Below, piece by piece: positions 24,362-35,576 of a stretch of 64,000 bases of DNA; position 1 is the stretch's first letter; every line of letters starts with the position of its first letter. Under the pieces are notes generated by a model. It did not search any database, was not told the DNA's origin, and worked only from the letters and a program-made list of their open reading frames with translations. The DNA is taken from positions 117,395 to 181,394 of the forward strand of contig NZ_MRYI01000012.1 in the NCBI RefSeq assembly GCF_002260525.1. Direction: 5' to 3'. A program made the position numbers and the translations under genes. Source of the stretch: Hahella sp. CCB-MM4 (GTDB lineage Bacteria > Pseudomonadota > Gammaproteobacteria > Pseudomonadales > Oleiphilaceae).

Positions 24362-24892
24362 CTAGCTATTTAGTAAAAGATACTGCCGTATCTCAACCTG
24401 TTTTTCGTGCTGTAACATCCAGCTTTTAAATTCCCGGACCTTTTCAAAATCCTCTTCACCGATACTCTCCTGGTAACGCTGGTTAACCCGGTTGATCTGT
24501 TGCTGTCTGCGCAACTCCCGTTGCCATTCCTCAGTGAAAATTTTGGGTAACTGACCCGCAAGTTCCAATTGCTTCAATAGTTTCCATTCGCCTTTGTCCA
24601 GCCATGCTTCATCACAATGGGTGCAAAGATCCAGTTTGTTCTGGGTGCTCAGGTCTATACGGAACTTGGTCATCAAACGTGAGCACTTCGGGCAGACCTT
24701 GGCGTGGTCGCTGTCTTCAGGGAGCACTTCCACTTCGACTTTTTCAACAGGTTCGTTCTGTTGCTGCACCCAATGGCGGTAATTCAGCAATGGCAGCAGA
24801 GCGCCTTCGCACTTCGGGCAACTGGCGGCCAGAAGATTCTCTTCCAATAAACGGGGTTCCAGGGTATAGCCTGGGCATTGTGGGCAGTGCAT
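24362..24892 (-). CDS. double zinc-ribbon protein (two CxxC...CxxC modules, zf-TFIIB-like) with a charged C-terminal helical tail
   Basis: CPQC...CPKC and CPKC...CTHC pairs; last gene of the minus-strand cluster. Confidence 0.6.
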   Translation of the reverse strand: MHCPQCPGYTLEPRLLEENLLAASCPKCEGALLPLLNYRHWVQQQNEPVEKVEVEVLPEDSDHAKVCPKCSRLMTKFRIDLSTQNKLDLCTHCDEAWLDKGEWKLLKQLELAGQLPKIFTEEWQRELRRQQQINRVNQRYQESIGEEDFEKVREFKSWMLQHEKQVEIRQYLLLNS

Positions 24893-24909: not shown

Positions 24910-25476
24910 CTATCTGATTCTGGCAGATTGTTTTCTAAATACGGTTGTCAGCCATGCGGCACCTATACCTGAAAGTGCTCCGAATAAATGGGCTTCAAAA
25001 GAAACCCGGGGATCATTGGGGAGAACCCCATAAATCATCCCTCCATAGAGAAACACAACGATCAGGGCGATAAATATATTCAATGCGCTACGGTCAAACC
25101 AGGCTAACGCGATACTCAGGCTCCAGAGGCCAAAAATCCAGCCGCTGGCACCAATGTGGATTGAGGGGCGGCCGAAAAACCATATCAGCAGGCCGCTGAA
25201 GGTAATGATAAAGAAGCTGCTCCAGATATAAAGCTTCAATGACCTGAGCAGGCAGAGCCAGCTGAAAATCGCAAAGCCCACCAGGTTGTTGAATAGATGA
25301 TCGAACCCACCATGCAGGAATGGTGCGGCATATATACCTGGAAGACTGCTCAGCACATGAGGCCTGATGCCGTATCGCAACAACTGGTAGTTCATCAGTA
25401 TGTTGGTCAAATGTACCACGATCATGAGAACGGCCAGCCACAGGATGATTTTGGTGCGATACCATAACTTATTCAT
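24910..25476 (-). CDS. rhomboid family intramembrane serine protease
   Basis: 6 TM helices; GASGWIFGL catalytic Ser motif and a downstream His (AHLFGALSG). Confidence 0.85.
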   Translation of the reverse strand: MNKLWYRTKIILWLAVLMIVVHLTNILMNYQLLRYGIRPHVLSSLPGIYAAPFLHGGFDHLFNNLVGFAIFSWLCLLRSLKLYIWSSFFIITFSGLLIWFFGRPSIHIGASGWIFGLWSLSIALAWFDRSALNIFIALIVVFLYGGMIYGVLPNDPRVSFEAHLFGALSGIGAAWLTTVFRKQSARIR

Positions 25477-25527: not shown

Positions 25528-28500
25528 TCAATCATGTTTCCTGGTGCGTTTGATTTCCTCTTCCAGATTCTTTAGCTGTCGTGAAATATCCTGCATTTTT
25601 TCCTGGGTTCGCAGATCGATATCAATCTTCTTATCCATGCTATGTACCAACGGATAGAGGCTGTTCTGCCAAGTATCGGCCAGGACCCGCAGGATGTTTT
25701 CCAAGCCGGGAATTGGAGGACTGTTTACTTCCACTTTAGGCTCTACCTTCAGCTTTGGTGTGCTCTTGCTGATGGTTTGCCCCAGGTTGTTAAGGGACTC
25801 AAGCAGTCCGCTCTGGAACTGTTGATTCGCCTGCCGGCTTTCCTGCTCACGTTGCTGTTGGAACTCAGCTGTAGCGGCCCGGTTTTCGGCCACGCTGTGA
25901 TTCAGATGCTGGATACCTTCGACGAGATCGGTCAGCTGGGCAACCACGCGGCCACCTACGTCTGCGTCACTGCCACCCATGGCTTTGTTGCGCAGGAAGT
26001 CCTTCTTGATTTGCTCCCACCGCTGCTGTTCTTCGGACGTCATGTTGCCCCGAAGTGCCGCCAGTTTGAGCAGGTTTTCTTCCGCTCCAGTGGTCAGTAG
26101 CTGGGCCTCACCAAGATAATGGTCGGAGATGAGCTGCATCAATTCATCGTCGTTCATCACCGACGAGACTTTCTCCGCCATCTTGTTCATGTTCCGGTAG
26201 CTGCCCTGCAGCTTGAAGGAAGGCTCGTTTCGATATCGGTCGTCCTGTGCGGCGGAGGCAATATACTGCTGGTTGATCTTGAGAATGACATCCTGGATCA
26301 CAAACAGTTTTTGTAATACGGACTTCATTTCATTCAACTCTGCACCACTGTATTGATGCTTGAGATCTGTCGCGGCAACCGGTTCACCTTTCGCCATGGC
26401 GATGATTTTGTATACATCGTCCATTTCCCTGGTTGCCAGAGGTGCCAATACAGAATTGGAGGTAAGGCTATTCTCGATATAACTCAGGCTGAACTGCTCG
26501 TCCATGCCGCCGAGTATATCGCCCAGGTTGTAGATATCTGCCCGGTTGGCCAGCATGTCGGGGACCTTGAAGGCTTCACCGGACTCCGTATACGGGTTAC
26601 CAGCCATGACCACACAGAACTTGCGTCCGCGCATATCGTAGGTTTTGGTCTTGCCTTTCCAGACCCCCTCTATGCGACGGGTGCCGTCACACAATGAGAT
26701 GAATTTCTGCAGGAATTCCGGGTGCGTATGCTGGATGTCATCCAGGTACAGCATGACATTGTTCCCCATTTCCAGTGCCAGATTGAGCTTTTGCAGCTCC
26801 TGGCGTGCCGTGGCGTTGGGGGCTTGGGCCGGATCCAGGGATAAAACGTCATGGCCGAGGGATGGACAGTTAATCTTCATGAAGATCAACCCAAGCCGGT
26901 TAGCCACATATTCCATCAGGGTGGTTTTACCGTAACCTGGAGGAGAGATCATCATGAGGAGGCCCATCAGGTCGGTTCGTTTGGACTCTCCAACGGTTCC
27001 CATCTGTTTAGCCAGGTTGTCACCGATAATCGGCAGATAAGATTCATTAATCAGGCGGTTGCGGACAAACGAACTCAGCGGACGAGGTTTGAACTCCTCC
27101 AATCGTAGGGCTGAACGTTCCTCTTCAATGATCGTCTGACGAAGGCGCAGATAGTTGTGGTAGCTGGGAACAACTTCCTGCTGATGTCGCTGAAGACGTA
27201 ACATGAATCCGTCCAGGGAGAAACGCAGTGCTTGCTGCTCCATTCCCGGATGATCGCCGAGCAGGCCGCTGACTTCCAGCTCCAGGTCTGTCTGGCTGAG
27301 GCGTCTCTCGATTCTTTGGCCTGCATTCATGAGCGCGACAGCTTCAGGAATATAGTGTTCCAAATGCCCAAGGTTCTTTTTTCCCACCATCGCTGACAGC
27401 CAGGCTTCGCCCAGTTTCCAGCGTTCTGCCACCTGGCCGTGCAGCTGCTCCTGTGCGGTCTGGTAGGTACGCCAGCTTTCTTCATCCAGTGAGCGTTTGA
27501 ACTCCTCTGCAAGATCCTGTGCGTATTTGCTGCTGATAAACTCCAGCCGTTCACGTCCCATTTCTGCCACAAGATAAGAGGCAGCCTGTTGTTGCTCCAG
27601 GTCTGAGAAGGGCAGGGGATAGCATTCCAGGAAACGTTGCAGATGTTCCAGGACTTCCTGTTCAAGGTGCTTGATAGCCCGAGTATCGGCAAAGGTGTTC
27701 TTAAGCAGCTGAGCAGACTGTGCTCTTTGCTGCCAGGTCGCCGCTTTTCCAGTGAGTTCTTCAATATTGCTGCGGCCGGGCAGGGCGGATTGAGTGCCCA
27801 GGGGCTTGATCAGGTTTGCCCAATAAATCTGGGCCAGGCCACGGGATTTTGGATTGAAGATCAATAGATCCGCACTGTCCATGGCCGGCAGTAATTGTTT
27901 CAGAATGAGGGCTGCATCATGATCATGAACACCCTTTTGATAACCCTCTTTGTAACGGGGAGCCGAAAAGGTTCGGATCAGCTTCAGGAGCTCCTCATCA
28001 TCAAGCAATGCCTGATTCAGGGTGTCCATATTAAAGTCATGTTGACCGGAATCTGCTGCCTCTATCAGTTGCATGGCAAGGTATTCCGAACGGTATACTT
28101 CACTGGTTTCGGACTCGAGAGTCATATCCCAGTATGGTTTCAGTGCTAAAAGCTCCGGCCGTTCAATCGATTCGAAGAAGTTGGTCCCGGTAAGGTGAAT
28201 GCTGAGTTTGTCTTCCCGGGGCAAAATGGTCAGGTCAAGTTCCTGGGTGTTCACACTGAATTTGTGTCTTGGCCCCAGCTTGATGACATTGCCACCCGCC
28301 TCGTAAATGTCGGATTTGTCCCGTAGCGAACGGGTGGACTGTTCACGGACAGACTTCAGACGGGATTCAACATCGTCTGCTTTAACATTACTGTCGAGCT
28401 CCCGTAGTTTTTCCACGGATTCACGAACTTTCTGAACCAGGGCATCCGAAGCAAAGAAGGTATTGAGTTCGTCTGCTTCGTTAAACTTCATTGCCCGGCG

Positions 28501-30873
28501 TTCAATGCTCGCCAGTATCCGGTTGGCGCCGTCAAGAATGGTCTGCGCCTTGCGCTGACGCTCATCCAGCAGCTGTTGCTTATGGGTCTCGAAAGTCTCA
28601 TAGACCTCCTCCCGTTTCTCCATGATATCGGTTAGAAACTGGTCGAAGTCACTGAACTGGCTTTCCAGCTCTTCCAGCTGGATTAACAGACGGGAGAGTT
28701 GCTCGTCACAACGCTCTGGCGTCGAGGCCATACTTAGAGCATTGGTAATGCTCTGGGAGAACAGCTTGAACTGCGCTCCAAACTGTGCGGTTGCCTCTTC
28801 AGAACCAAGGTTCTTACCTTTGTTGGACGCCTTGGCTTTGCTCTGGTTAAGCCGGGAGTAAATGTCAGATATGGAGTCAACAATCTGGGTGCGGACATTG
28901 GCGTCTGCTACCTTGAGAGTGGCCATCAACTCCGACAGCAGATCAAGACCCGAAGCCATGTTGTTGAATGTGTCGATCAGTGGGGACAACGTTGCCATGG
29001 AGGTTGCCGCTTCAACCTCACCATTGAGCTGGTCAATGCGTTCCAGGTAAGGATTAAAAGCATCTTCACCCTGGAGGAATTCCACGGTACGTTCACTCAG
29101 GTTCTCCTGGGCTTTCACCAATTGACCGTCGAGCTCGCTAATGCGGGTCGTGTCTATGTAACGGAGTTCCTTGATCGTGGTCAGATGGCCGCGTTGATGA
29201 CGAATCTTGTCCAGTGCGGCAACATACTCTTCTGCCGACTCCCAGTTTTCCGGGCGAATGGCAGTAAGTATCGACTTCTGTTCTTCCTCCGCTTTGGCCA
29301 TGGTTTTGGCCGATTGCTGGCGGATGGACTGAACCTTTTCAAACTCATCGATGACCAGCTCTGCGGTTGCAGAGATTTCCTTCAGCAAAGTGGCAATACT
29401 TGCCACTTCCTCTTCTTCTATCCAGAAGTGATGATCGAAGAATTTATTGGCATTGACACTGAGTTCTTCGTAAAGCCTGGCTGATACGGATTGGTTTTTG
29501 ATGATCCGGACCAGGCTGAACAGATCGGAAACCCCTCTGACCAGTTCGGAGTTGCCAATACGCCCGTAGAACGTCTTGGATGGCGGGATCTTGCTGGCAA
29601 ACTCTTCACTGACAAAAGGCGTTTGCCAGATTTGCATGGGATGAACCCGGGTCGGTTCTTCCTCCGCCGTGAAGATGACCAATGTGCCGTCGTCTGCCAA
29701 CGCATAACCGTGACCATAGATAGGGTTCTGAATCGCCTTCTCGATCAGGTTGTAGGCTAACAGGCAAACAACACCTTCTTCAGGCTGATAGAAAGAATAG
29801 AGAACATCCTCGCCATTGGGGGAGCGCATTTGCCGCTTAAATTTCAGACCCTTTACATCGCCGTCAAAGGTTTTGAATTCACCGGTCTGGAGATAGTAAC
29901 CACCGGGGAAAATGATGCCGTGGTCCTCTGGCAGCTGTACGCAGGATTGACCGATGGCATCGATACGTAGCACGTCCTGGGTCAGGGTGTTGAATATCAG
30001 ATAGCGCCACTGTTCTTCGCGGTAAGGGCGGATTTTCAGAAGTATCAGATCGCCCAGATGAGCGTAAAAAATACTGGCATCGTCGATGGATTGAGTATCA
30101 TCTTCTACGTCTTCGCGGTAGATACCAAGACCGTCATCGGTGTTGTTCTCCACCTTGATGGTCAGGTCCCCGTTAATGGTTTCCACAAAGACTTTGTCGA
30201 GAATATTGATGTGGGGATGCCGGCCATGCACGGTGTCTTCACGCACAGTGGCGGTCCACTCGAAATCGAAAGCGGGAGGTAGTTGAATGTCCCGCTCACC
30301 CCGATTATCGATATATTTGACCTGTTTTCCGTCCGGTGAGATTGACCAGCGGAATACGCGGATATCTTCCAGTCTTTCACCGATCTGGAAGCCGGCCAGA
30401 AGCTTTCCATCCTTGACGGTTAGCTCTACCAGCCGGGTATGTTTGTAATAGCGATAGAGTTCGTCGAAGTCGTTAACAAAACTTCGCTCAGACAGGAAGG
30501 AGTTGTCCAATACAACTTCTTCCATGGCTTGTTCTGCGCCTTCTCCCTGAAGGCGAAACAATGCGAAAACGTCCTCAACCTTGGTTTCCTTTTTAAGGCC
30601 CAGGTAGACATTGAAGCCGAATACAAGAAGCTCACCAACCTGCACCATATCCCTGGGGATACAGTTGTTTTCCGTGCGGACTCTCACCCGGGTAGTCACG
30701 CTCATTTCTGAGGTGCCAAACTCTTCAAGGCGTGCGTTGTTTAGGGTTTTTGCCTGGTCCTCAAGCTGTTTTCCCTGGTCGATCAAACGTTTTCGGATGA
30801 CTTCATAAGCACCACCTTCAGCTACCGCCGATTCGGTCAGGTCGGTGTCTTTGGTTTGATCCTGCTGTGCCAT
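25528..30873 (-). CDS. giant (~1780 aa) soluble protein with an embedded MoxR/AAA_5-type AAA+ ATPase module near residues 1300-1480; unknown N-terminal domain and a long alpha-helical middle region
   Basis: Walker A SPPGYGKTT (nt ~26920-26943), Walker B VMLYLDDIQ, sensor-1 VVMAGNP, then the GEAFKVPDMLANRADI signature of the NP..G..LP..L.DRF type; no TM helix; start taken at the AGGA-preceded ATG at 30873, with an alternative GTG at 30918. Confidence 0.7.
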   Translation of the reverse strand: MAQQDQTKDTDLTESAVAEGGAYEVIRKRLIDQGKQLEDQAKTLNNARLEEFGTSEMSVTTRVRVRTENNCIPRDMVQVGELLVFGFNVYLGLKKETKVEDVFALFRLQGEGAEQAMEEVVLDNSFLSERSFVNDFDELYRYYKHTRLVELTVKDGKLLAGFQIGERLEDIRVFRWSISPDGKQVKYIDNRGERDIQLPPAFDFEWTATVREDTVHGRHPHINILDKVFVETINGDLTIKVENNTDDGLGIYREDVEDDTQSIDDASIFYAHLGDLILLKIRPYREEQWRYLIFNTLTQDVLRIDAIGQSCVQLPEDHGIIFPGGYYLQTGEFKTFDGDVKGLKFKRQMRSPNGEDVLYSFYQPEEGVVCLLAYNLIEKAIQNPIYGHGYALADDGTLVIFTAEEEPTRVHPMQIWQTPFVSEEFASKIPPSKTFYGRIGNSELVRGVSDLFSLVRIIKNQSVSARLYEELSVNANKFFDHHFWIEEEEVASIATLLKEISATAELVIDEFEKVQSIRQQSAKTMAKAEEEQKSILTAIRPENWESAEEYVAALDKIRHQRGHLTTIKELRYIDTTRISELDGQLVKAQENLSERTVEFLQGEDAFNPYLERIDQLNGEVEAATSMATLSPLIDTFNNMASGLDLLSELMATLKVADANVRTQIVDSISDIYSRLNQSKAKASNKGKNLGSEEATAQFGAQFKLFSQSITNALSMASTPERCDEQLSRLLIQLEELESQFSDFDQFLTDIMEKREEVYETFETHKQQLLDERQRKAQTILDGANRILASIERRAMKFNEADELNTFFASDALVQKVRESVEKLRELDSNVKADDVESRLKSVREQSTRSLRDKSDIYEAGGNVIKLGPRHKFSVNTQELDLTILPREDKLSIHLTGTNFFESIERPELLALKPYWDMTLESETSEVYRSEYLAMQLIEAADSGQHDFNMDTLNQALLDDEELLKLIRTFSAPRYKEGYQKGVHDHDAALILKQLLPAMDSADLLIFNPKSRGLAQIYWANLIKPLGTQSALPGRSNIEELTGKAATWQQRAQSAQLLKNTFADTRAIKHLEQEVLEHLQRFLECYPLPFSDLEQQQAASYLVAEMGRERLEFISSKYAQDLAEEFKRSLDEESWRTYQTAQEQLHGQVAERWKLGEAWLSAMVGKKNLGHLEHYIPEAVALMNAGQRIERRLSQTDLELEVSGLLGDHPGMEQQALRFSLDGFMLRLQRHQQEVVPSYHNYLRLRQTIIEEERSALRLEEFKPRPLSSFVRNRLINESYLPIIGDNLAKQMGTVGESKRTDLMGLLMMISPPGYGKTTLMEYVANRLGLIFMKINCPSLGHDVLSLDPAQAPNATARQELQKLNLALEMGNNVMLYLDDIQHTHPEFLQKFISLCDGTRRIEGVWKGKTKTYDMRGRKFCVVMAGNPYTESGEAFKVPDMLANRADIYNLGDILGGMDEQFSLSYIENSLTSNSVLAPLATREMDDVYKIIAMAKGEPVAATDLKHQYSGAELNEMKSVLQKLFVIQDVILKINQQYIASAAQDDRYRNEPSFKLQGSYRNMNKMAEKVSSVMNDDELMQLISDHYLGEAQLLTTGAEENLLKLAALRGNMTSEEQQRWEQIKKDFLRNKAMGGSDADVGGRVVAQLTDLVEGIQHLNHSVAENRAATAEFQQQREQESRQANQQFQSGLLESLNNLGQTISKSTPKLKVEPKVEVNSPPIPGLENILRVLADTWQNSLYPLVHSMDKKIDIDLRTQEKMQDISRQLKNLEEEIKRTRKHD

Positions 30874-30981
30874 ATTGTTTTCCTGTAACCTGTCTTTACT
30901 CGAAAGCTTTTTACGCACCCGCTCACAACTGTTGTCAGCGAATCATCTTTACCCATTGCGATGGTTAAAGGTGGGATTAGG

Positions 30982-31004
30982 GGAGGCGAGCTGTACCCGC
31001 CTCC
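30982..31004 (-). other. intra-operon GC hairpin (GGAGGCG-N9-CGCCTCC) between the flotillin and giant ATPase genes
   Basis: read from the sequence; no U-tract. Confidence 0.35.
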
Positions 31005-31019
31005 GTATGCAACGATCTG

Positions 31020-32981
31020 TTAGTTCAGTGTTGCATCATCAGGTTTGGTGATATCGGCGGTTTTGGCTTGCAGGAATTTGTCCAGCAGCGCACTTACCGT
31101 ACCACTCTTGGATGCCAATCCATCAACGGCTTTACCGAGTGACAGAGACTTGGCAAATGTATCGAAGAAGTGCTCTTCTCCGCCCACGATGTCGATATGG
31201 GCTTTCTCAAGGGCTTTGCCGAGTACGTCAGCATTTTCGCGCGCGATTTCCTTACCTGCTTCAATAGAGGCCAGGGCTTCTTTGAAGGCAGTTTCCAGAG
31301 TCATACGGAATTCCTCGTGGTCGCGTGCCTTGTCGCTCATGCTGCCCATCGCCTGGAATTTGTCCACCAGACCGTCGGCTTCGGCTTTGAACTTCTCGCG
31401 GATAACATCGGCTTCGGCCATACCCACATCTTTCTGGGCTTTGGCTTCTGCGGTACCTTTGGCACTGATGACTTCTGCATCCACCAGACCGGTATCGCGC
31501 TGTGCTTTGGCACTGGCTTCGCCTTTAGCGGCGATGACTTTGGCTTCTGCAAGACCTTCTTTCTCCATGGCGTCAGCTTTGGCTTCCTGAACTTTCGCTT
31601 CTGCAAGGCCGTGTGCAGCTTCTTCGGCCTGAATACCTTCAGCCAGCTTCTTCTTACCATCAGCTTCTTTCGCAGCCGCTTCCAGTTCGGCTTGTGCCAT
31701 GGTGGTGATTTCAAGCGCCTTGAATTTCGCAGCCTGTTCTTGGGCTTCAGCGGCTTTCACCTGCTTGACTTTATCCTCTTCAGCCTGTGCTTCGGCAGAC
31801 AGTACCTGTACTTGCTTCAGGCGGTCAGCTTCAGATACTTCGCGTACTTCCTTGATGCGTTCTTCTTCGATCGCCACGGTTTTATCCACTGCAACACGTT
31901 CGCGGATAACGTTGGCAATCTCTTTCTTCTCAACTTCGACAGCTTTTTCAGCCTCGATCTTCTGAATATCAACCTCACGCTCACGCGAAACGATTTCCAG
32001 CTCGCGGGCACGAATGACTTTTTCTTCTTCAATCGCTACAGCACGAAGTCTGTTTTGCGCTGCCACTTCAACTTCACGTTGTTGGTTCTCACGCTGAACC
32101 GCCAGGTCCTGCTCAACGGTGATGGTGGTCGCTTCGGCCTTCTTGCGTTCTTCTTCCTGAACCTTCTTGGTTTCCGCTTCTTCCCGTGCGCGGATTGTCG
32201 CGATTTCACGCTCCTGGCGCGCTTCGGCATCAGCCTGCTGGCGATCCAACTCAAGCATGGCTTCAACGGTTTCCACGTTTTTCTTCTTGATCGCCAGCTC
32301 TTCGTCCCGCTCAAGAATATTGGTGCGAACGTTTTGTGCGGCCGTCAATTCTGTGATTTTCTTGATACCTTCGGAGTCCAGAATGTTGCTGGCATCGAGG
32401 GAAGCTTTTGGAGTTTGCTCCAGGTAATCAATTGCGACGTCTTCCAGTACATATCCGCTTAGATCGTCGCCAATGACTTCAATAATTTTCTCACGGAACT
32501 GAATGCGGTTTTCGAAAAGCTGCACGAAATCGATTTGCTTGCCGACCGTTTTCAAGGCCTCGGAGAACTTGGCAGCAAACAGATCGTGGACTGCTTCGCG
32601 ATCGGAAGCACGTGTAGCTCCTACTGTTTTGGCAACCCGTAGTACATCTGTCGCTGTTTCGTTAACTCGAAGATAGAAAGCAACGGTAATATCTGCACGC
32701 ATATTGTCTTTACAGATCAGCCCTTCCTTGCCGCGACGGTCCACTTCCAAGGTGATTAATGATATTTTCATTAATTCCTTTTTGTAGATAATCGGATAAA
32801 CCAAAGCACCCGTGAAATGTACTTTCGGTGTGGAACTCATGTCATTGACAATAAGAGCTGTGCCTTGCTCCACCTTGTAATAGAAGGCTTTAAACAGGCC
32901 AGCCAGGCCCATGATGACGACAAATACGATGCCAATGCCAAGTAATATTGGCACTATTACCGATAAGTCTGCTATGCCCAT
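31020..32981 (-). CDS. yqiK-like: flotillin family protein (SPFH/band-7 domain, YqiK-like) with a long Ala/Glu/Lys-rich repetitive coiled-coil C-terminal region
   Basis: N-terminal TM helix, SPFH domain, EA-rich flotillin repeats; adjacent NfeD-like gene as in E. coli yqiJK. Confidence 0.85.
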   Translation of the reverse strand: MGIADLSVIVPILLGIGIVFVVIMGLAGLFKAFYYKVEQGTALIVNDMSSTPKVHFTGALVYPIIYKKELMKISLITLEVDRRGKEGLICKDNMRADITVAFYLRVNETATDVLRVAKTVGATRASDREAVHDLFAAKFSEALKTVGKQIDFVQLFENRIQFREKIIEVIGDDLSGYVLEDVAIDYLEQTPKASLDASNILDSEGIKKITELTAAQNVRTNILERDEELAIKKKNVETVEAMLELDRQQADAEARQEREIATIRAREEAETKKVQEEERKKAEATTITVEQDLAVQRENQQREVEVAAQNRLRAVAIEEEKVIRARELEIVSREREVDIQKIEAEKAVEVEKKEIANVIRERVAVDKTVAIEEERIKEVREVSEADRLKQVQVLSAEAQAEEDKVKQVKAAEAQEQAAKFKALEITTMAQAELEAAAKEADGKKKLAEGIQAEEAAHGLAEAKVQEAKADAMEKEGLAEAKVIAAKGEASAKAQRDTGLVDAEVISAKGTAEAKAQKDVGMAEADVIREKFKAEADGLVDKFQAMGSMSDKARDHEEFRMTLETAFKEALASIEAGKEIARENADVLGKALEKAHIDIVGGEEHFFDTFAKSLSLGKAVDGLASKSGTVSALLDKFLQAKTADITKPDDATLN

Positions 32982-33058: not shown

Positions 33059-33745
33059 TCAACCTTTGAACTCTTCTTCTGATATAACTCTGTAGACGTG
33101 TTGTTCCGATAGGTATTCCAGCAGGACCACCCGGTCACCTTTCTTGAATATGTCTTTGCCGGTTGAGCGAACTTTGAATATCAGGCCTGCACCTCCATCA
33201 TCAAGGGTGGCTTCACCGAAGTTATTATCTACCCGGGAGGTTCTTACTATTGCTGTTTGACCTAACACCTGCTTTAACGTGTCCTGATTTGCCCGGCGAA
33301 AGAGTGGGCGCAATGGGCGAATCACCACTCCTGTTATATAAGCGGAAATGTACAGTGCTCCGAATAGTACCGGGATTCCGGCTAAATAATGTAGTAGCCC
33401 ATCAGGTATCAGGCCAAATAAAAAATGAACGACAAAATAGCTGATGAACCAGCCGAATAGCGATAAAAAGGAAACGATAATAGTGACAGGCACACCAAAG
33501 AGACCGAACTTCAGCATAAGGCCAGCCAGTACATCGGGTCCTGTGAACTGAGTGTCATTCACTCCTAAGTCGCCATCAGGGTCGGGTATATCAAAATCAA
33601 GTATATCGAGATCTATCAAGCCCAGGATGGCAACAAGCCAAAAAAGTACGCATAGAGTAAGGAAAAAGGTAAAGATTACCGTCGGAAAAGAACTGATGTT
33701 CTGATAAAACGGATCCATTTTGTCGCTGAGTAAGATGGCAAACAC
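33059..33745 (-). CDS. yqiJ-like: NfeD-like / YqiJ family inner-membrane protein (TM helices plus a C-terminal OB-fold)
   Basis: multiple TM helices, then the C-terminal beta-rich tail GQTAIVRT...KGDRVVLLEY typical of NfeD; immediately upstream of the flotillin gene. Confidence 0.7.
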   Translation of the reverse strand: MFAILLSDKMDPFYQNISSFPTVIFTFFLTLCVLFWLVAILGLIDLDILDFDIPDPDGDLGVNDTQFTGPDVLAGLMLKFGLFGVPVTIIVSFLSLFGWFISYFVVHFLFGLIPDGLLHYLAGIPVLFGALYISAYITGVVIRPLRPLFRRANQDTLKQVLGQTAIVRTSRVDNNFGEATLDDGGAGLIFKVRSTGKDIFKKGDRVVLLEYLSEQHVYRVISEEEFKG

Positions 33746-33859
33746 TTAATATCTCCTCTACGAAGTGTGTCGTCCCATTCCTTTGGTGGTGGTCCAGGTT
33801 GCCAAATTCGAGTACTGCTCAAACTCCCCGTAATCCGGGGAGTTAACTACTCTCAGGAA

Positions 33860-34099
33860 TTACAAGCCAATCTCATTTTTGATTTCATTGAGCTTTTCAA
33901 GCATTGCTGCATCGATTTCGTGTGGTTTGACTTTCGAAATGATGTTGCGCAATACACGAATTTCATTCTGATCCACAACGCCATCCCGTTTGGCAATATC
34001 AAAGATAGCTCCTAATTCGGAGGCATCCAGTTTTCCGTCATTGGAAAAACAGTTGATCGACCGGAAGGTCATTTCCAGATAGTCGCGGCTTTCCGCCAT
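33860..34099 (-). CDS. small (79 aa) TerB-like / tellurite-resistance-type domain protein
   Basis: DGKLDASELGAIFDIAKRDGVVDQNEIRVL resembles the TerB-family helical motif; low certainty. Confidence 0.35.
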   Translation of the reverse strand: MAESRDYLEMTFRSINCFSNDGKLDASELGAIFDIAKRDGVVDQNEIRVLRNIISKVKPHEIDAAMLEKLNEIKNEIGL

Positions 34100-34162
34100 A
34101 AAGTATCTCCTATTTGTATAATTGGCCTGCCGGGTTATGTTGTTGGCCTGGCAGGCCGGGTG

Positions 34163-34855
34163 TTACTTACTCGATTTCTGCTTCAGGCGAGCCAGAACAT
34201 CATTGGCGCTGTGGGGGTTGCTCACAATGCCTGCTTTCTCCAGTTTGGTTTTCAGGTCGTCCTCAGTTGTCTCTTTGGATAGCTCTTCTGCGGCCGACAT
34301 TTTTGCAGCTGTATGCGTTTGTTTCTCTTTAATGCGCTCCAGTGAATCCATGGCTGTTCTCAGCTTGGAGTTAGAGCCGGCATATCGAGCAGCGACGGCC
34401 TTTTGCGCCCGCTGGACACTTTCAGTCGCTTTCACCGTATCCACCTGTTGCTTCAGGCGCTTGATATTGCCCTCTGCCTGCTGAATTGAGGCACGTAGTT
34501 TGTCTGCGTTTTCTTTGAAGCCTGCTGCGCTGTCTTCTTCCGTTTGTAGCTGGTTTTCAAAGGTCGCAATTTTTTCTGCGATTTCCAGGGCCAGGGTTTC
34601 ATCTTCCTTGTTCAGAGCTTGGACGGCATAACCTTCATACTCCCCGATCTGCTCCTTGAGCTTGCTGCATTTTTCCTCTGCCACTTTCTGCTGAGCAATT
34701 ATGGCTACCAGGCTTTCCTTTGATTGCTTCAGCTCTTCTGAGGCGTCGCGCACTTCCTGGTCGAGAATGCGTAGTGCCTGACTATCTACTATTGCTTCAC
34801 CAGCTTCATTAACTCCGCCACGTAGAGCGGTCATCATCTTGGCCCAAACGTTCAT
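34163..34855 (-). CDS. PspA/IM30 family protein (YjfJ-like; ESCRT-III superfamily)
   Basis: the N-terminus MNVWAKMMTALRGGVNEAGEAIVDSQALRILDQEVRDA follows the PspA pattern; ~225-aa all-helical coiled-coil protein. Confidence 0.75.
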   Translation of the reverse strand: MNVWAKMMTALRGGVNEAGEAIVDSQALRILDQEVRDASEELKQSKESLVAIIAQQKVAEEKCSKLKEQIGEYEGYAVQALNKEDETLALEIAEKIATFENQLQTEEDSAAGFKENADKLRASIQQAEGNIKRLKQQVDTVKATESVQRAQKAVAARYAGSNSKLRTAMDSLERIKEKQTHTAAKMSAAEELSKETTEDDLKTKLEKAGIVSNPHSANDVLARLKQKSSK

Positions 34856-34858
34856 TGC

Positions 34859-35518
34859 TTAAACCTCCTCGGTAACGGCTACAGACAGGTATTCGCTATA
34901 TGCCTCTGCTGCCTGGATAACATTGGATGCTAGAACTTCAATCTCAAACACAATGTTCGACAAAATTGATGTGGAGCTCAGTGCACCAAACATGTGGTAG
35001 TAGTCTTCGTCATCTTCCACCTTGTCCAGGCTGATGGTGGAAAGGGGAAAGTATTTATGTGTTCTGAGCACGGCTTCGTTGAAGCCTGCAACGTCGACAA
35101 CTTCCGACAACGGCCAGAGAACGGATTCCGCAATGATCTGTTCGCCGGCAACAGTTACAAATATCGGCAGCTCGCCATACTCTCTCATCAGTATCAGGAG
35201 GGAAGGCTCCGCTCCTTCAATCAGCTCAATCGTGGCTCTTTCGGATTTAAACAGTTCTTCTTCGGAAAGCGCCTTGAATAGGCTTTGTGTAGTCCACAAT
35301 GTGACGTTTTCCATAATCACTTCTCCTTCGCTTAGCAGCTTGATCTGGTTGGAAAAATCACCGGACTGGCGTAACAGCCTTTCGATTGTTGCCAGTTTTT
35401 TTGAGTTTTCCGGAAGTATCCAGATCTCTTTTTTAATCAGCCCTTGTTCGCGCATGCGACGGCGATATTCGCGCTGATAGTGTGCGGATGTTTTCTTGTT
35501 CATGAGGTGACTATGCAT
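34859..35518 (-). CDS. DUF2170 (YjfI)-like protein with a ~65-aa Arg/Lys-rich N-terminal extension
   Basis: the C-terminal ~150 aa (PIFVTVAGEQIIAESVLWP...FGALSS...EIEVL) fits DUF2170, partner of YjfJ/PspA-like proteins; N-terminus MNKKTSAHYQREYRRRMREQG is basic. Confidence 0.45.
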   Translation of the reverse strand: MHSHLMNKKTSAHYQREYRRRMREQGLIKKEIWILPENSKKLATIERLLRQSGDFSNQIKLLSEGEVIMENVTLWTTQSLFKALSEEELFKSERATIELIEGAEPSLLILMREYGELPIFVTVAGEQIIAESVLWPLSEVVDVAGFNEAVLRTHKYFPLSTISLDKVEDDEDYYHMFGALSSTSILSNIVFEIEVLASNVIQAAEAYSEYLSVAVTEEV

Positions 35519-35541
35519 CAGATTTGTGAGGGTGTCAATAA

Positions 35542-35576
35542 ATTACATGTAACATTGGATTCGTGTTACATGTAAT
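35542..35576. promoter_or_regulatory. perfect 13-bp inverted repeat ATTACATGTAACA-N9-TGTTACATGTAAT 24-58 bp upstream of the cluster's first start codon; candidate operator
   Basis: read from the sequence; each half contains the self-palindrome TTACATGTAA. Confidence 0.5.

What the first reader, a model, noticed from the sequence alone, without database searches (positions are those of the whole stretch)
25528..30918. Giant soluble protein with a single embedded MoxR/AAA_5-type ATPase module
The ORF track gives a 1796-aa ORF from a GTG at 30918; the better start is the ATG at 30873, preceded by an AGGA RBS. There are no TM helices. The N-terminal ~450 aa is a beta-rich domain of unknown type, and residues ~500-1300 are an extended E/L/K/Q-rich helical region. 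Residues ~1300-1480 carry Walker A (SPPGYGKTT), Walker B (VMLYLDDIQ), sensor-1 (VVMAGNP) and the GEAFKVPDMLANRADI signature typical of MoxR/AAA_5 ATPases (NPxxxxGxxxLPxALxDRF). The C-terminal ~300 aa is again helical and Q/E-rich. A single AAA+ module inside such a large protein implies a hexamer with massive appendages, reminiscent of dynein/midasin-type mechanoenzymes rather than a standard chaperone. No VWA partner is encoded nearby, which is unusual for MoxR-type ATPases.
Basis: seen in the sequence. Interest (0 to 1): 0.8.

Follow-up and report, generated by a model that had tools for sequence, protein, structure and literature searches.

The report
Giant flotillin-linked AAA+ ATPase (BacE family)
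This is a real 1781-residue cytoplasmic ATPase, labelled "DNA repair ATPase" in databases with no support found here, that is almost always encoded directly after a flotillin-type membrane-scaffold gene and often a phage-shock (PspA) gene, so it most likely powers remodelling of those membrane-stress assemblies; the family is already catalogued but has never been characterised biochemically.

Summary
ORF 25528-30873 (-) encodes a 1781-aa soluble protein, identical to a Hahella sp. CCB-MM4 protein annotated "DNA repair ATPase". It has an N-terminal beta-propeller (Pfam DUF3686), a long helical region (DUF7902), one AAA+ module with all catalytic motifs invariant across phyla, and a C-terminal coiled coil.

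The module is AAA+, and its nearest structural neighbours are the MoxR-type proteins NorQ and CbbQ. These nearly tie with RuvB, ClpB and Skd3. MoxR membership is not established, and it is not dynein-like (one module per chain).

The gene is the fifth of a P. aeruginosa bacABCDEF-like operon: BacA(DUF2170)-PspA-[79 aa]-NfeD-like-flotillin-giant-rhomboid-Zn-ribbon. The NfeD-flotillin-giant triad holds in 69/70 gammaproteobacterial loci and 56/58 distant loci. It also occurs in Deinococcus and on plasmid pQBR103. PspA is optional.

Ravi et al. 2024 described this association, and the P. aeruginosa orthologue is BacE. So this is a new member of a known, uncharacterised kind.

Most likely it is an ATP-driven remodeller of flotillin/NfeD (and PspA) assemblies; that step is inferred.

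In passing, I found a conserved TYACATGTRA double operator on a probably leaderless promoter, present only in loci that contain BacA.

The parts
25528..30873 (-). Giant ATPase gene (1781 aa plus stop); orthologue of P. aeruginosa BacE (PA14_16190/PA3728)
   Evidence: ORF and start. 100% identical to the 1781-aa Hahella sp. CCB-MM4 protein. The P. aeruginosa RT-PCR primers map to the 5' and 3' ends of the homologous gene in Pseudomonas-group loci.
29425..30765 (-). DUF3686 region (residues 37-483): N-terminal helix followed by a beta-propeller of about 7 blades (strands 58-417)
   Evidence: Pfam DUF3686 E 1e-204. The AF2 model shows about 28 strands. Foldseek hits are beta-propellers: Sec12, prolyl oligopeptidase, LGI1 EPTP.
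28312..29571 (-). Long helical-bundle / coiled-coil region (residues 435-854), including DUF7902 (604-687; nt 28813-29064)
   Evidence: AF2 secondary structure; Pfam DUF7902 E 2e-26.
27313..28263 (-). Small beta domain (871-903) plus an all-helical domain (928-1187) of unknown type
   Evidence: AF2 model, pLDDT mostly 85-94 for residues 930-1190.
26074..27090 (-). AAA+ module with lid (residues 1262-1600)
26920..26946 (-). Walker A SPPGYGKTT (1310-1318)
   Evidence: S-P-P-G-Y-G-K is invariant in 71 diverse homologues.
26731..26757 (-). Walker B VMLYLDDIQ (1373-1381), a DD rather than DE variant
   Evidence: D1378, D1379, Q1381 and H1382 are invariant.
26593..26613 (-). Sensor-1 strand VVMAGNP (1421-1427)
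   Evidence: G1425, N1426 and P1427 are invariant.
26533..26580 (-). GEAFKVPDMLANRADI (1432-1447), with candidate arginine finger R1444
   Evidence: G1432, F1435, P1438, M1440, L1441 and R1444 are invariant. The assignment rests on motif position only, because the model has low confidence here.
26194..26208 (-). QGSYR (1556-1560), candidate sensor-2 arginine R1560 in the lid
   Evidence: Q1556, G1557, S1558, Y1559 and R1560 are invariant across 71 homologues; the assignment rests on position and analogy.
25531..26073 (-). C-terminal helical / coiled-coil hairpin (1601-1781)
   Evidence: AF2: long helices at 1639-1703 and 1724-1780.
31020..32981 (-). Flotillin-type SPFH protein (653 aa; N-terminal TM segment, SPFH-like domain, long E/A/K-rich coiled coil); BacD/PaFlo3 homologue
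   Evidence: Sequence. 4 of 25 homologues hit Pfam Band_7, best E 2e-12. The best solved-structure profile hit is QmcA, E 0.002. RefSeq calls the pQBR103 homologue 'SPFH domain-containing protein'. It lies directly upstream of the giant gene in 69/70 and 56/58 loci.
33059..33745 (-). NfeD/YqiJ/YuaF-like membrane protein (probable start ATG 33718); BacC homologue
   Evidence: Sequence. Weak Pfam YqiJ_N hit. The best solved-structure profile hit is B. subtilis YuaF 2k14, E 0.002, in the C-terminal beta domain. Conserved upstream of the flotillin gene.
33860..34099 (-). Small 79-aa gene with an AGGAG RBS; weak EF-hand/TerB-like matches; an accessory member of the cluster
   Evidence: Homologues occur in 26 loci at different positions within the cluster.
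34163..34855 (-). PspA/IM30 (ESCRT-III superfamily) protein; BacB homologue
   Evidence: Pfam PspA_IM30 E 1e-47.
34859..35503 (-). BacA homologue: a 65-aa basic N-terminal extension plus a DUF2170 (CesT/Tir-like) domain
   Evidence: NCBIfam BacA equivalog, 315.8 bits against a cut-off of 300. Residues 68-207 match the BacA crystal structure 8q8o, E 3e-43.
35510..35576 (-). Operon control region: two TTACATGTAA palindromes, then TTGACA-17-CATAGT, with the ATG 6 nt after the -10
   Evidence: conserved in BacA-containing loci only.
24910..25476 (-). Rhomboid intramembrane serine protease (GASG serine and AHLFG histidine present), 51 nt downstream of the giant gene
   Evidence: Pfam Rhomboid E 4e-16; sequence; present in 39 of 80 gammaproteobacterial loci.
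24362..24892 (-). Double zinc-ribbon protein (176 aa)
   Evidence: Pfam Zn_ribbon_TFIIB; sequence; present in 33 of 80 loci.

Best explanation
The gene encodes the ATPase subunit of a conserved membrane-stress module, not a DNA-repair enzyme.

Shown here:
- It is a cytoplasmic 1781-aa protein built from a beta-propeller, long helical spacers, one catalytically intact AAA+ module and a C-terminal coiled coil.
- It is almost always encoded immediately downstream of an NfeD-like membrane protein and a flotillin-type SPFH protein. In many lineages a PspA (ESCRT-III family) gene and its CesT-like partner BacA precede them.
- The Hahella locus is an orthologue of the P. aeruginosa bacABCDEF operon, with the giant corresponding to BacE.

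From the literature: in P. aeruginosa the operon is co-transcribed, is derepressed in a bacA mutant and is induced by phage infection.

Inferred:
- The protein assembles through its AAA+ module into a ring, probably a hexamer.
- It docks by its propeller and coiled-coil appendages onto the cytoplasmic flotillin/NfeD cage, and where present onto PspA polymers.
- It uses ATP hydrolysis to assemble, remodel or take apart these membrane-bound assemblies. This would be functionally analogous to Vps4 acting on ESCRT-III, or to the AAA+ protease FtsH working with HflK/C.
- Flotillin/NfeD is the primary client, because that linkage is near-universal while PspA is optional.
For: Architecture: Pfam DUF3686 + DUF7902 + AAA/AAA_5; AF2 models; propeller hits; AAA+ hits.

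Catalytic competence under selection: Walker A, Walker B, sensor 1, R1444 and QGSYR are invariant in 71 homologues that are 32-54% identical to the Hahella protein over their full length, and in representatives from Bacteroidota and Actinomycetota.

Gene linkage:
- The flotillin homologue is upstream in 69 of 70 gammaproteobacterial loci with enough flank, and the NfeD-like gene in 67 of 68; BacA and PspA occur in 59.
- In distant metagenomic loci (37-52% identical to a Niabella member) the flotillin gene is present in 56 of 58, NfeD in 54 of 58 and PspA in 21 of 58.
- The same triad is found in Deinococcus and on pQBR103.

Partner identities: BacA equivalog and PspA; YuaF-like; Band_7 and QmcA.

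Literature:
- Ravi et al. [quoted passage not shown]
- bacA-F are co-transcribed, and BacE is 8.9-fold up in the bacA mutant (PMC10948618).
- Primer mapping identifies BacE as the giant.
- PA3728-PA3732 are induced by phage infection (PMC12041424).
- Bacteria appear to lack a Vps4-like ATPase (PMC7619361).
Against: There is no direct evidence of physical contact, ATPase activity or oligomeric state for any member of the family. The AF2 models are only moderate (pLDDT 69.5 and 77.9, pTM 0.36 and 0.42), and confidence is low exactly around the P-loop and the arginine-finger segment. The AAA+ clade is ambiguous. Deleting the P. aeruginosa flotillin paFlo3 gave only about 20% less biofilm and no strong phenotype (PMC13086221). 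One gammaproteobacterial locus (L061) and two metagenomic loci (L145, L159) lack the flotillin gene upstream. Gene linkage does not say whether the ATPase acts on flotillin, on PspA, on a membrane-protein client, or only regulates.
Confidence: 0.6

Rival explanations
1. It is a DNA-repair ATPase, as the database names say.
For: The Pfam DUF3686 description and the NCBI/UniRef product names read 'DNA repair ATPase/protein'. The P-loop segment resembles that of RuvB.
Against: No nuclease, helicase or DNA-binding domain was detected. The RuvB similarity is limited to about 35 residues around the P-loop. None of the 160 loci analysed shows a conserved DNA-repair neighbour, whereas membrane proteins are always adjacent. 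I found no paper mentioning DUF3686.
Confidence: 0.03
2. It is a bona fide MoxR-family chaperone that matures or inserts cofactors into a partner, as NorQ/NorD, CbbQ/CbbO and RavA/ViaA do, here with a non-VWA partner.
For: The AAA_5 match is above threshold. The segment from sensor 1 to the arginine finger has the same spacing as the MoxR signature. NorQ and CbbQ are the best AAA+ structural hits, with the highest identity (14-19%).
Against: No VWA/MIDAS partner is encoded anywhere in the cluster. AAA_3 scores 13 bits against a cut-off of 27. The structural scores nearly tie with HCLR-clade proteins. The model shows no helix-2 insert. The protein is about 6 times larger than MoxR proteins.
Confidence: 0.1
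3. It is part of an anti-phage defence or abortive-infection system built around a giant ATPase.
For: PA3728-PA3732 are up-regulated in all phage-infected P. aeruginosa samples (PMC12041424). Copies exist on megaplasmids such as pQBR103.
Against: None of the five proteins scanned (BacA, PspA, NfeD-like, flotillin and the giant) gave a meaningful PADLOC match; only PspA matched, and only in coiled-coil regions. There were no phage-borne copies. The window flanks are housekeeping genes with the same composition. Induction by phage is what a general phage-shock or envelope-stress module would show anyway.
Confidence: 0.07
4. It is mainly a structural, coat- or scaffold-like protein (a propeller followed by helical repeats, as in membrane-coat proteins) whose AAA+ module acts as a nucleotide switch for self-assembly rather than as an unfoldase or disassemblase.
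For: The architecture is a beta-propeller followed by about 750 helical residues. Weak Foldseek hits go to IFT-A, a nuclear-pore subunit and the clathrin terminal domain with linker. The Walker B motif is DD rather than DE.
Against: Those hits have TM-scores of 0.13 or less and are driven by the propeller alone. The complete set of hydrolysis motifs is invariant. From my own knowledge, not tested here, DD Walker B motifs are compatible with hydrolysis in other AAA+ proteins such as DnaA.
Confidence: 0.15

Closest known systems
P. aeruginosa BacE (PA14_16190 / PA3728) of the bacABCDEF 'biofilm-associated cluster'
   Same: The gene order is the same: BacA(DUF2170)-PspA-NfeD-like-flotillin-giant, followed by a downstream gene. 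The BacA equivalog score is above its cut-off. The published junction primers map to the ends of the giant gene in Pseudomonas-group loci.
   Different: The Hahella locus carries an extra 79-aa gene between PspA and NfeD, and a Zn-ribbon gene after the rhomboid. I did not have the P. aeruginosa sequence itself. BacE has no assigned function in the literature.
[quoted passage not shown] 2024, PMC11237479)
   Same: The domain architecture and the operon partners are the same, including the abbreviated flotillin-YqiJ-ATPase version found without PspA.
   Different: None in kind. The present work adds counts of linkage, the invariant catalytic residues, structural neighbours of the AAA+ module and the operator.
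MoxR-family AAA+ ATPases (NorQ, CbbQ, RavA)
   Same: They are the best structural matches to the AAA+ module. The AAA_5 profile match is above threshold, and the spacing from sensor 1 to the arginine finger is similar.
   Different: There is no VWA partner. The protomer is about 1781 aa against about 250-500 aa. AAA_3 is below threshold. The P-loop 'PPGYGKTT' is of the RuvB/classical type, and no helix-2 insert is seen in the model.
Vps4 with ESCRT-III (archaea and eukaryotes)
   Same: In both cases an AAA+ ATPase is genetically coupled to an ESCRT-III-superfamily protein (PspA). Archaeal ESCRT loci also include SPFH proteins (PMC10936438).
HflK/C-FtsH and related pairings of an SPFH scaffold with an AAA+ machine
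   Same: An SPFH cage-forming protein is paired with an AAA+ machine, and here a rhomboid protease is often encoded next door. From my own knowledge, this recalls the mitochondrial SLP2-PARL-YME1L hub.
   Different: The giant has no protease domain and no TM segment. No complex has been shown.

Membership tests
AAA+ superfamily | Walker A GxxGxGK[ST] and Walker B hhhhD[DE] | tested here: met
   SPPGYGKTT at 1310-1318 and VMLYLDD at 1373-1379, invariant in 71 diverse homologues. Walker B is a DD variant.
AAA+ superfamily | Alpha-beta-alpha nucleotide-binding fold followed by a helical lid | tested here: met
AAA+ superfamily | Sensor 1, arginine finger and sensor 2 | tested here: inconclusive
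   The candidates N1426, R1444 and R1560 are invariant and sit at the expected motif positions. The model is low-confidence around R1444, so the spatial roles are not verified.
MoxR / AAA_5 (helix-2-insert clade) | Profile match to AAA_5 or AAA_3 | tested here: inconclusive
   AAA_5 scores 28.5 bits (cut-off 22) over profile positions 2-125 of 139. AAA_3 (MoxR proper) scores 13.3 bits (cut-off 27). PF00004 and AAA_22 score similarly to AAA_5.
MoxR / AAA_5 (helix-2-insert clade) | Pre-sensor-1 beta-hairpin and helix-2 insert | tested here: inconclusive
   A hairpin is predicted at 1400-1413, between the Walker B helix and the sensor-1 strand. No beta-hairpin is predicted in the helix-2 region (1336-1353). 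The model quality is moderate.
MoxR / AAA_5 (helix-2-insert clade) | Cognate VWA/MIDAS partner protein encoded nearby | tested here: not met
   No VWA domain was found in the giant or in any neighbour in the window, nor in the annotated pQBR103 and Deinococcus loci.
Pfam DUF3686-DUF7902-AAA 'DNA repair ATPase' family | DUF3686 and DUF7902 profile matches in a protein of about 1600-1900 aa with the AAA module near residue 1300 | tested here: met
   DUF3686 E 1e-204 and DUF7902 E 2e-26. The same architecture is seen in the listed best hits among more than 6,600 homologue clusters, and in long variants.
bacABCDEF / CesT-PspA-flotillin-AAA+ operon | Co-directional gene order BacA(DUF2170), PspA, NfeD/YqiJ-like, SPFH/flotillin, giant ATPase | tested here: met
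   In the window the gaps are 3, 63, 141, 77 and 146 nt, all on the minus strand. The order is conserved in 59 gammaproteobacterial loci.
bacABCDEF / CesT-PspA-flotillin-AAA+ operon | Co-transcription and co-regulation of the genes | not testable with these tools
   This is shown only for P. aeruginosa, by RT-PCR and proteomics (PMC10948618).
Vps4 / classical AAA clade | MIT domain, classical-clade fold without a pre-sensor-1 hairpin | tested here: not met
Dynein / midasin | Six concatenated AAA+ modules in one polypeptide | tested here: not met
   There is only one P-loop and one AAA profile match in 1781 residues.

The most novel reading that the evidence does not exclude
The giant ATPase may be the missing bacterial counterpart of Vps4. 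In this reading it is a ring-forming machine of non-classical AAA+ origin that uses its propeller and coiled-coil arms to grip flotillin/NfeD cages and PspA (ESCRT-III) polymers on the inner membrane. ATP hydrolysis would then disassemble or recycle them after membrane damage. That would be a convergent solution to ATP-driven turnover of membrane-remodelling polymers in bacteria.
Probability: 0.3. Interest if true: 0.8.

Novelty: new member of a known kind. Interest (0 to 1): 0.5.

Why it matters
Bacteria have ESCRT-III homologues (PspA, Vipp1) and flotillin cages, but no recognised ATPase that turns them over. Recent reviews state that a Vps4-like enzyme appears absent from bacteria (PMC7619361). 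This family is widespread: more than 6,600 clusters at 90% identity, at least 553 species in the genome collection, and at least four phyla. It is locked to a specific flotillin/NfeD pair and is often joined to PspA. It is therefore the most obvious candidate for that role, and it carries a 'DNA repair' label that nothing found here supports. The Hahella copy itself is an ordinary member. Its value is as an entry point for biochemistry, and as a reason to correct the annotation.

Tried and rejected
1. Sequence searches of the whole protein, and of a 71-sequence family profile, against all PDB chains matched only the P-loop of RuvB, NVL, Rix7 and p97 (E 0.002 or worse). They did not resolve the AAA+ clade.

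2. A profile of the AAA module searched against all ORFs of the 160 fetched loci and the window found no other AAA+ family (best E 0.2). This shows only that the module is very distinct.

4. Foldseek of the 1200-residue N-terminal model gave high-probability but very low-TM hits to dynein heavy chains, IFT-A and a nuclear-pore subunit. I treat these as propeller and long-helix artefacts, not homology.

5. Pfam and PDB single-sequence searches failed to label the flotillin and NfeD-like proteins. Only family-level tests gave support.

6. Long family variants (1858-2036 aa) were scanned for informative fused domains; none was found.

7. The canonical sigma-54 pattern TGGCAC-N5-TTGC is absent from the window.

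8. The PADLOC defence models gave only coiled-coil noise.

Full report
**Observation.** The ORF 25528..30918 on the minus strand is real. The ATG at 30873, preceded by AGGA, gives a 1781-aa product. That product is 100% identical over its full length to a protein of Hahella sp. CCB-MM4 annotated 'DNA repair protein/ATPase'. More than 6,600 clusters of homologues were found, and the best 120 listed are 1750-1830 aa long with 99-100% coverage. The giant size is therefore native and not a fusion artefact. No segment is hydrophobic enough to be a TM helix.

**Anatomy.** Pfam finds DUF3686 (37-483, E 1e-204), DUF7902 (604-687) and weak AAA, AAA_22 and AAA_5 matches at 1304-1429. Two AlphaFold2 models were built from a 74-sequence alignment.
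- The N-terminal 1200 residues (mean pLDDT 77.9) show a helix at 22-52. About 28 strands follow at 58-417, and Foldseek matches these to seven-bladed propellers (Sec12, prolyl oligopeptidase, LGI1 EPTP). Next come helical bundles at 435-854, a small beta domain at 871-903 and a confident all-helical domain at 928-1187.
- The C-terminal 632 residues (mean pLDDT 69.5) show an alpha/beta P-loop core. A beta-hairpin lies between the Walker B helix and the sensor-1 strand. A helical lid and two very long terminal helices follow.

In an alignment of 71 representatives that are only 32-54% identical to the query, the following are invariant: S-PPGYGK, DD-QH, GNP, G-F-P-ML-R (R1444) and QGSYR (R1560). 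They are also invariant in members from Niabella (Bacteroidota) and Virgisporangium (Actinomycetota). The ATPase site is thus under strong purifying selection. Their roles are assigned from motif position only.

- Against: Skd3/CLPB, RuvB, ClpB NBD2 and ClpX score almost the same. AAA_3 is far below threshold. A family profile matches PDB sequences only around the P-loop, with RuvB first. No helix-2 insert appears in the model. No VWA partner exists anywhere in the cluster.

I conclude that it is a genuine AAA+ module of the pre-sensor-1-hairpin group, MoxR-like at best and not demonstrably a MoxR. It is also a very distinct lineage. A full-library HMMER search with the module found only 766 representative clusters at E<=0.001. 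The best 150 are all this giant family or fragments of it.

**Context, which is the key to function.** All the neighbours on the same strand belong together. In order they are:
- a BacA homologue (DUF2170; NCBIfam BacA equivalog, 315.8 bits against 300);
- PspA/IM30;
- a 79-aa ORF;
- a 3-4-TM protein with a C-terminal beta domain;
- a 653-aa protein with an N-terminal TM segment, an SPFH-like domain and a long Glu/Ala/Lys-rich coiled coil;
- the giant;
- a rhomboid protease with intact GASG and H motifs;
- a double zinc-ribbon protein.

The two proteins that Pfam left blank were identified at family level. For the 653-aa protein, 4 of 25 homologues hit Band_7 (E 2e-12), the family profile's best solved-structure hit is the SPFH protein QmcA, and RefSeq calls the pQBR103 homologue 'SPFH domain-containing protein'. 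For the 228-aa protein, the family profile's best solved-structure hit is the NfeD-type YuaF domain 2k14.

**How conserved is the linkage?**
- In 80 species-representative genomes, all Gammaproteobacteria, the flotillin gene precedes the giant in 69 of the 70 loci with enough flank. The NfeD-like gene is present in 67 of 68, BacA with PspA in 59, the rhomboid in 39 and the Zn-ribbon in 33.
- In 80 metagenomic loci chosen around a Bacteroidota member (37-52% identity to it), 58 have at least 3 kb upstream. Of these, the flotillin homologue is upstream in 56 (usually within 300 nt, E 1e-175 to 1e-235). NfeD is present in 54, PspA in only 21 and BacA in 3.
- A Deinococcus replicon carries the bare triad. 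The Pseudomonas megaplasmid pQBR103 joins the triad to the yjfKLMC-type genes.
- No phage carries the gene.
- The window flanks are housekeeping genes of the same composition.

The invariant core is therefore NfeD-like + flotillin + giant ATPase, with PspA/BacA, rhomboid, Zn-ribbon and the 79-aa protein as lineage-specific additions.

**What is already known.**
- Ravi et al. 2024 describe exactly this system. [quoted passage not shown] They also note abbreviated versions lacking PspA, and they suggest ATP-dependent membrane remodelling (PMC11237479).
- In P. aeruginosa the orthologous cluster is bacABCDEF. The six genes are co-transcribed. BacB to BacF rise 6- to 13-fold in a bacA mutant (PMC10948618).
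- The published junction primers map to the flotillin 3' end and to the 5' and 3' ends of the giant gene in my Pseudomonas-group loci. PA14_16190 = BacE is therefore the giant.
- PA3728-PA3732 are induced in all phage-infected samples (PMC12041424).
- PA14_16180 and PA14_16160 have been classed as an SPFH protein (PaFlo3) and a short NfeD. Deletion of paFlo3 has only mild phenotypes (PMC13086221).
- An AlphaFold screen predicts a BacA-BacB interaction (PMC13092808).
- I found no paper on DUF3686 and none reporting biochemistry or structure of the ATPase.

**Mechanism.**
- Shown: a soluble protein with an intact AAA+ site and large protein-interaction appendages, genetically locked to a flotillin/NfeD pair and frequently to PspA. 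In one species it is co-expressed with them under envelope or phage stress.
- Inferred: it forms a ring, docks on the cytoplasmic face of the flotillin/NfeD assembly, and uses ATP to assemble, remodel or dismantle that assembly and, where present, PspA polymers. This would be functionally comparable to Vps4 with ESCRT-III or to the AAA+ protease FtsH with HflK/C.
- I rank flotillin/NfeD above PspA as the primary client because of the 56/58 against 21/58 linkage.
- I give about 0.6 to the general statement and about 0.3 to the specific disassemblase model.
- The rivals are DNA repair, a true MoxR chaperone, phage defence and a coat-like scaffold with a nucleotide switch. They are listed with their evidence in the rival explanations. 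None is favoured by the context.

**Side finding on regulation.** Upstream of the bacA-like gene lie two copies of the palindrome TTACATGTAA, where 0.01 copies are expected by chance. They abut a TTGACA-17-CATAGT promoter-like site. The ATG that matches position 1 of the BacA model lies only 6 nt after the -10, with no Shine-Dalgarno sequence.
- A TYACATGTRA pair, usually with the -35 element between the two copies and always with the ATG close after the -10-like element, is found in 54 of 62 loci that contain BacA. These include Pseudomonas-group species. It is found in none of the 98 loci without BacA, in 2.84 Mb of sequence in all.
- BacA has a conserved basic N-terminal extension of about 65 residues that is absent from the crystallised fragment 8q8o. 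The extension weakly resembles MazE-like antitoxin DNA-binding domains (E 0.016, sub-threshold).
- This suggests a repressor-controlled, probably leaderless sigma-70 promoter, with BacA itself as the candidate repressor. That fits the derepression seen in the bacA mutant. It differs from the sigma-54 promoter proposed for P. aeruginosa, which I did not examine directly.

**Verdict.** The Hahella gene is an ordinary member of a large family that is already catalogued and has been described by comparative genomics, but that is functionally uncharacterised and carries an unsupported 'DNA repair' label. The novelty class is 'new member of a known kind'. Interest is moderate (0.5). The family, rather than this copy, is a strong candidate for the unknown ATP-driven turnover machinery of bacterial flotillin and PspA assemblies.

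Noticed in passing
window 35510-35576 (minus strand), and upstream of the bacA-like gene in loci L001-L080, L153, L158: There is a conserved double (sometimes triple) palindromic operator TYACATGTRA, spaced 14-25 nt start to start (44-51 nt in three loci). It overlaps a sigma-70-like promoter. The BacA start codon lies 6-9 nt after the -10 with no Shine-Dalgarno sequence, so the mRNA is probably leaderless. The motif pair occurs in 54 of 62 loci with BacA and in 0 of 98 without it. The literature proposed a sigma-54 promoter for the P. aeruginosa operon.
   Followed up: yes
window 35309-35503 (BacA residues 1-65): BacA carries a conserved basic N-terminal extension (MNKKTSAHYQREYRRRMREQGLIKKEIWILPENSKKLATIERLLRQ) that is absent from the crystallised DUF2170 fragment 8q8o. 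It has a weak, sub-threshold match to MazE-like antitoxins. It is a candidate DNA-binding domain that would make BacA the autorepressor acting at the palindromes.
   Followed up: partly
window 33860-34099 (minus strand): This is a 79-aa gene, too short for the ORF lists I first used (80-aa minimum); I did not check whether the public record annotates it. It has a strong AGGAG RBS and lies between PspA and the NfeD-like gene. It gives weak EF-hand and TerB-like matches. Homologues occur in 26 related loci at three different positions: between PspA and NfeD, between flotillin and the giant, or downstream of the giant. It is therefore a mobile accessory member of the module.
   Followed up: partly
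window 34122-34159 and 33822-33842: Two stable hairpins sit inside the operon. One has a 16-bp stem and lies immediately after the PspA stop; the other is a GC-rich stem after the 79-aa gene. They may be attenuators or mRNA-stability elements that would let PspA be expressed at a higher level than the downstream genes.
   Followed up: no
window 24910-25476 and 24362-24892: A rhomboid protease with intact catalytic Ser and His motifs, and a double zinc-ribbon protein, follow the giant gene with gaps of 51 and 17 nt. They recur in 39 and 33 of 80 gammaproteobacterial loci, but hardly at all in the distant loci. An SPFH scaffold, an AAA+ machine and a rhomboid together recall the mitochondrial SLP2-PARL-YME1L hub; that comparison is from my own knowledge and was not tested.
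   Followed up: partly
L161 (pQBR103, NC_009444.1 85907-104129): On the P. fluorescens SBW25 megaplasmid the NfeD-SPFH-giant triad is fused to a yjfKLMC-type set (DUF2491, DUF350, DUF1190, glutathionylspermidine-synthase-like) and is preceded by a rhomboid gene. This joins the two PspA-associated operon classes that Ravi et al. describe separately.
   Followed up: no
L061 (Methyloprofundus MAG), L145, L159: These are rare loci in which the giant gene has no flotillin or NfeD gene within the available upstream flank. They could show whether the ATPase can work without them, or whether the partner genes have moved elsewhere.
   Followed up: no
window 30874-31019: The 146-nt spacer between the flotillin stop and the giant's start contains the hairpin GGAGGCG-N9-CGCCTCC, with no T-tract after it. 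Its function is unknown.
   Followed up: no
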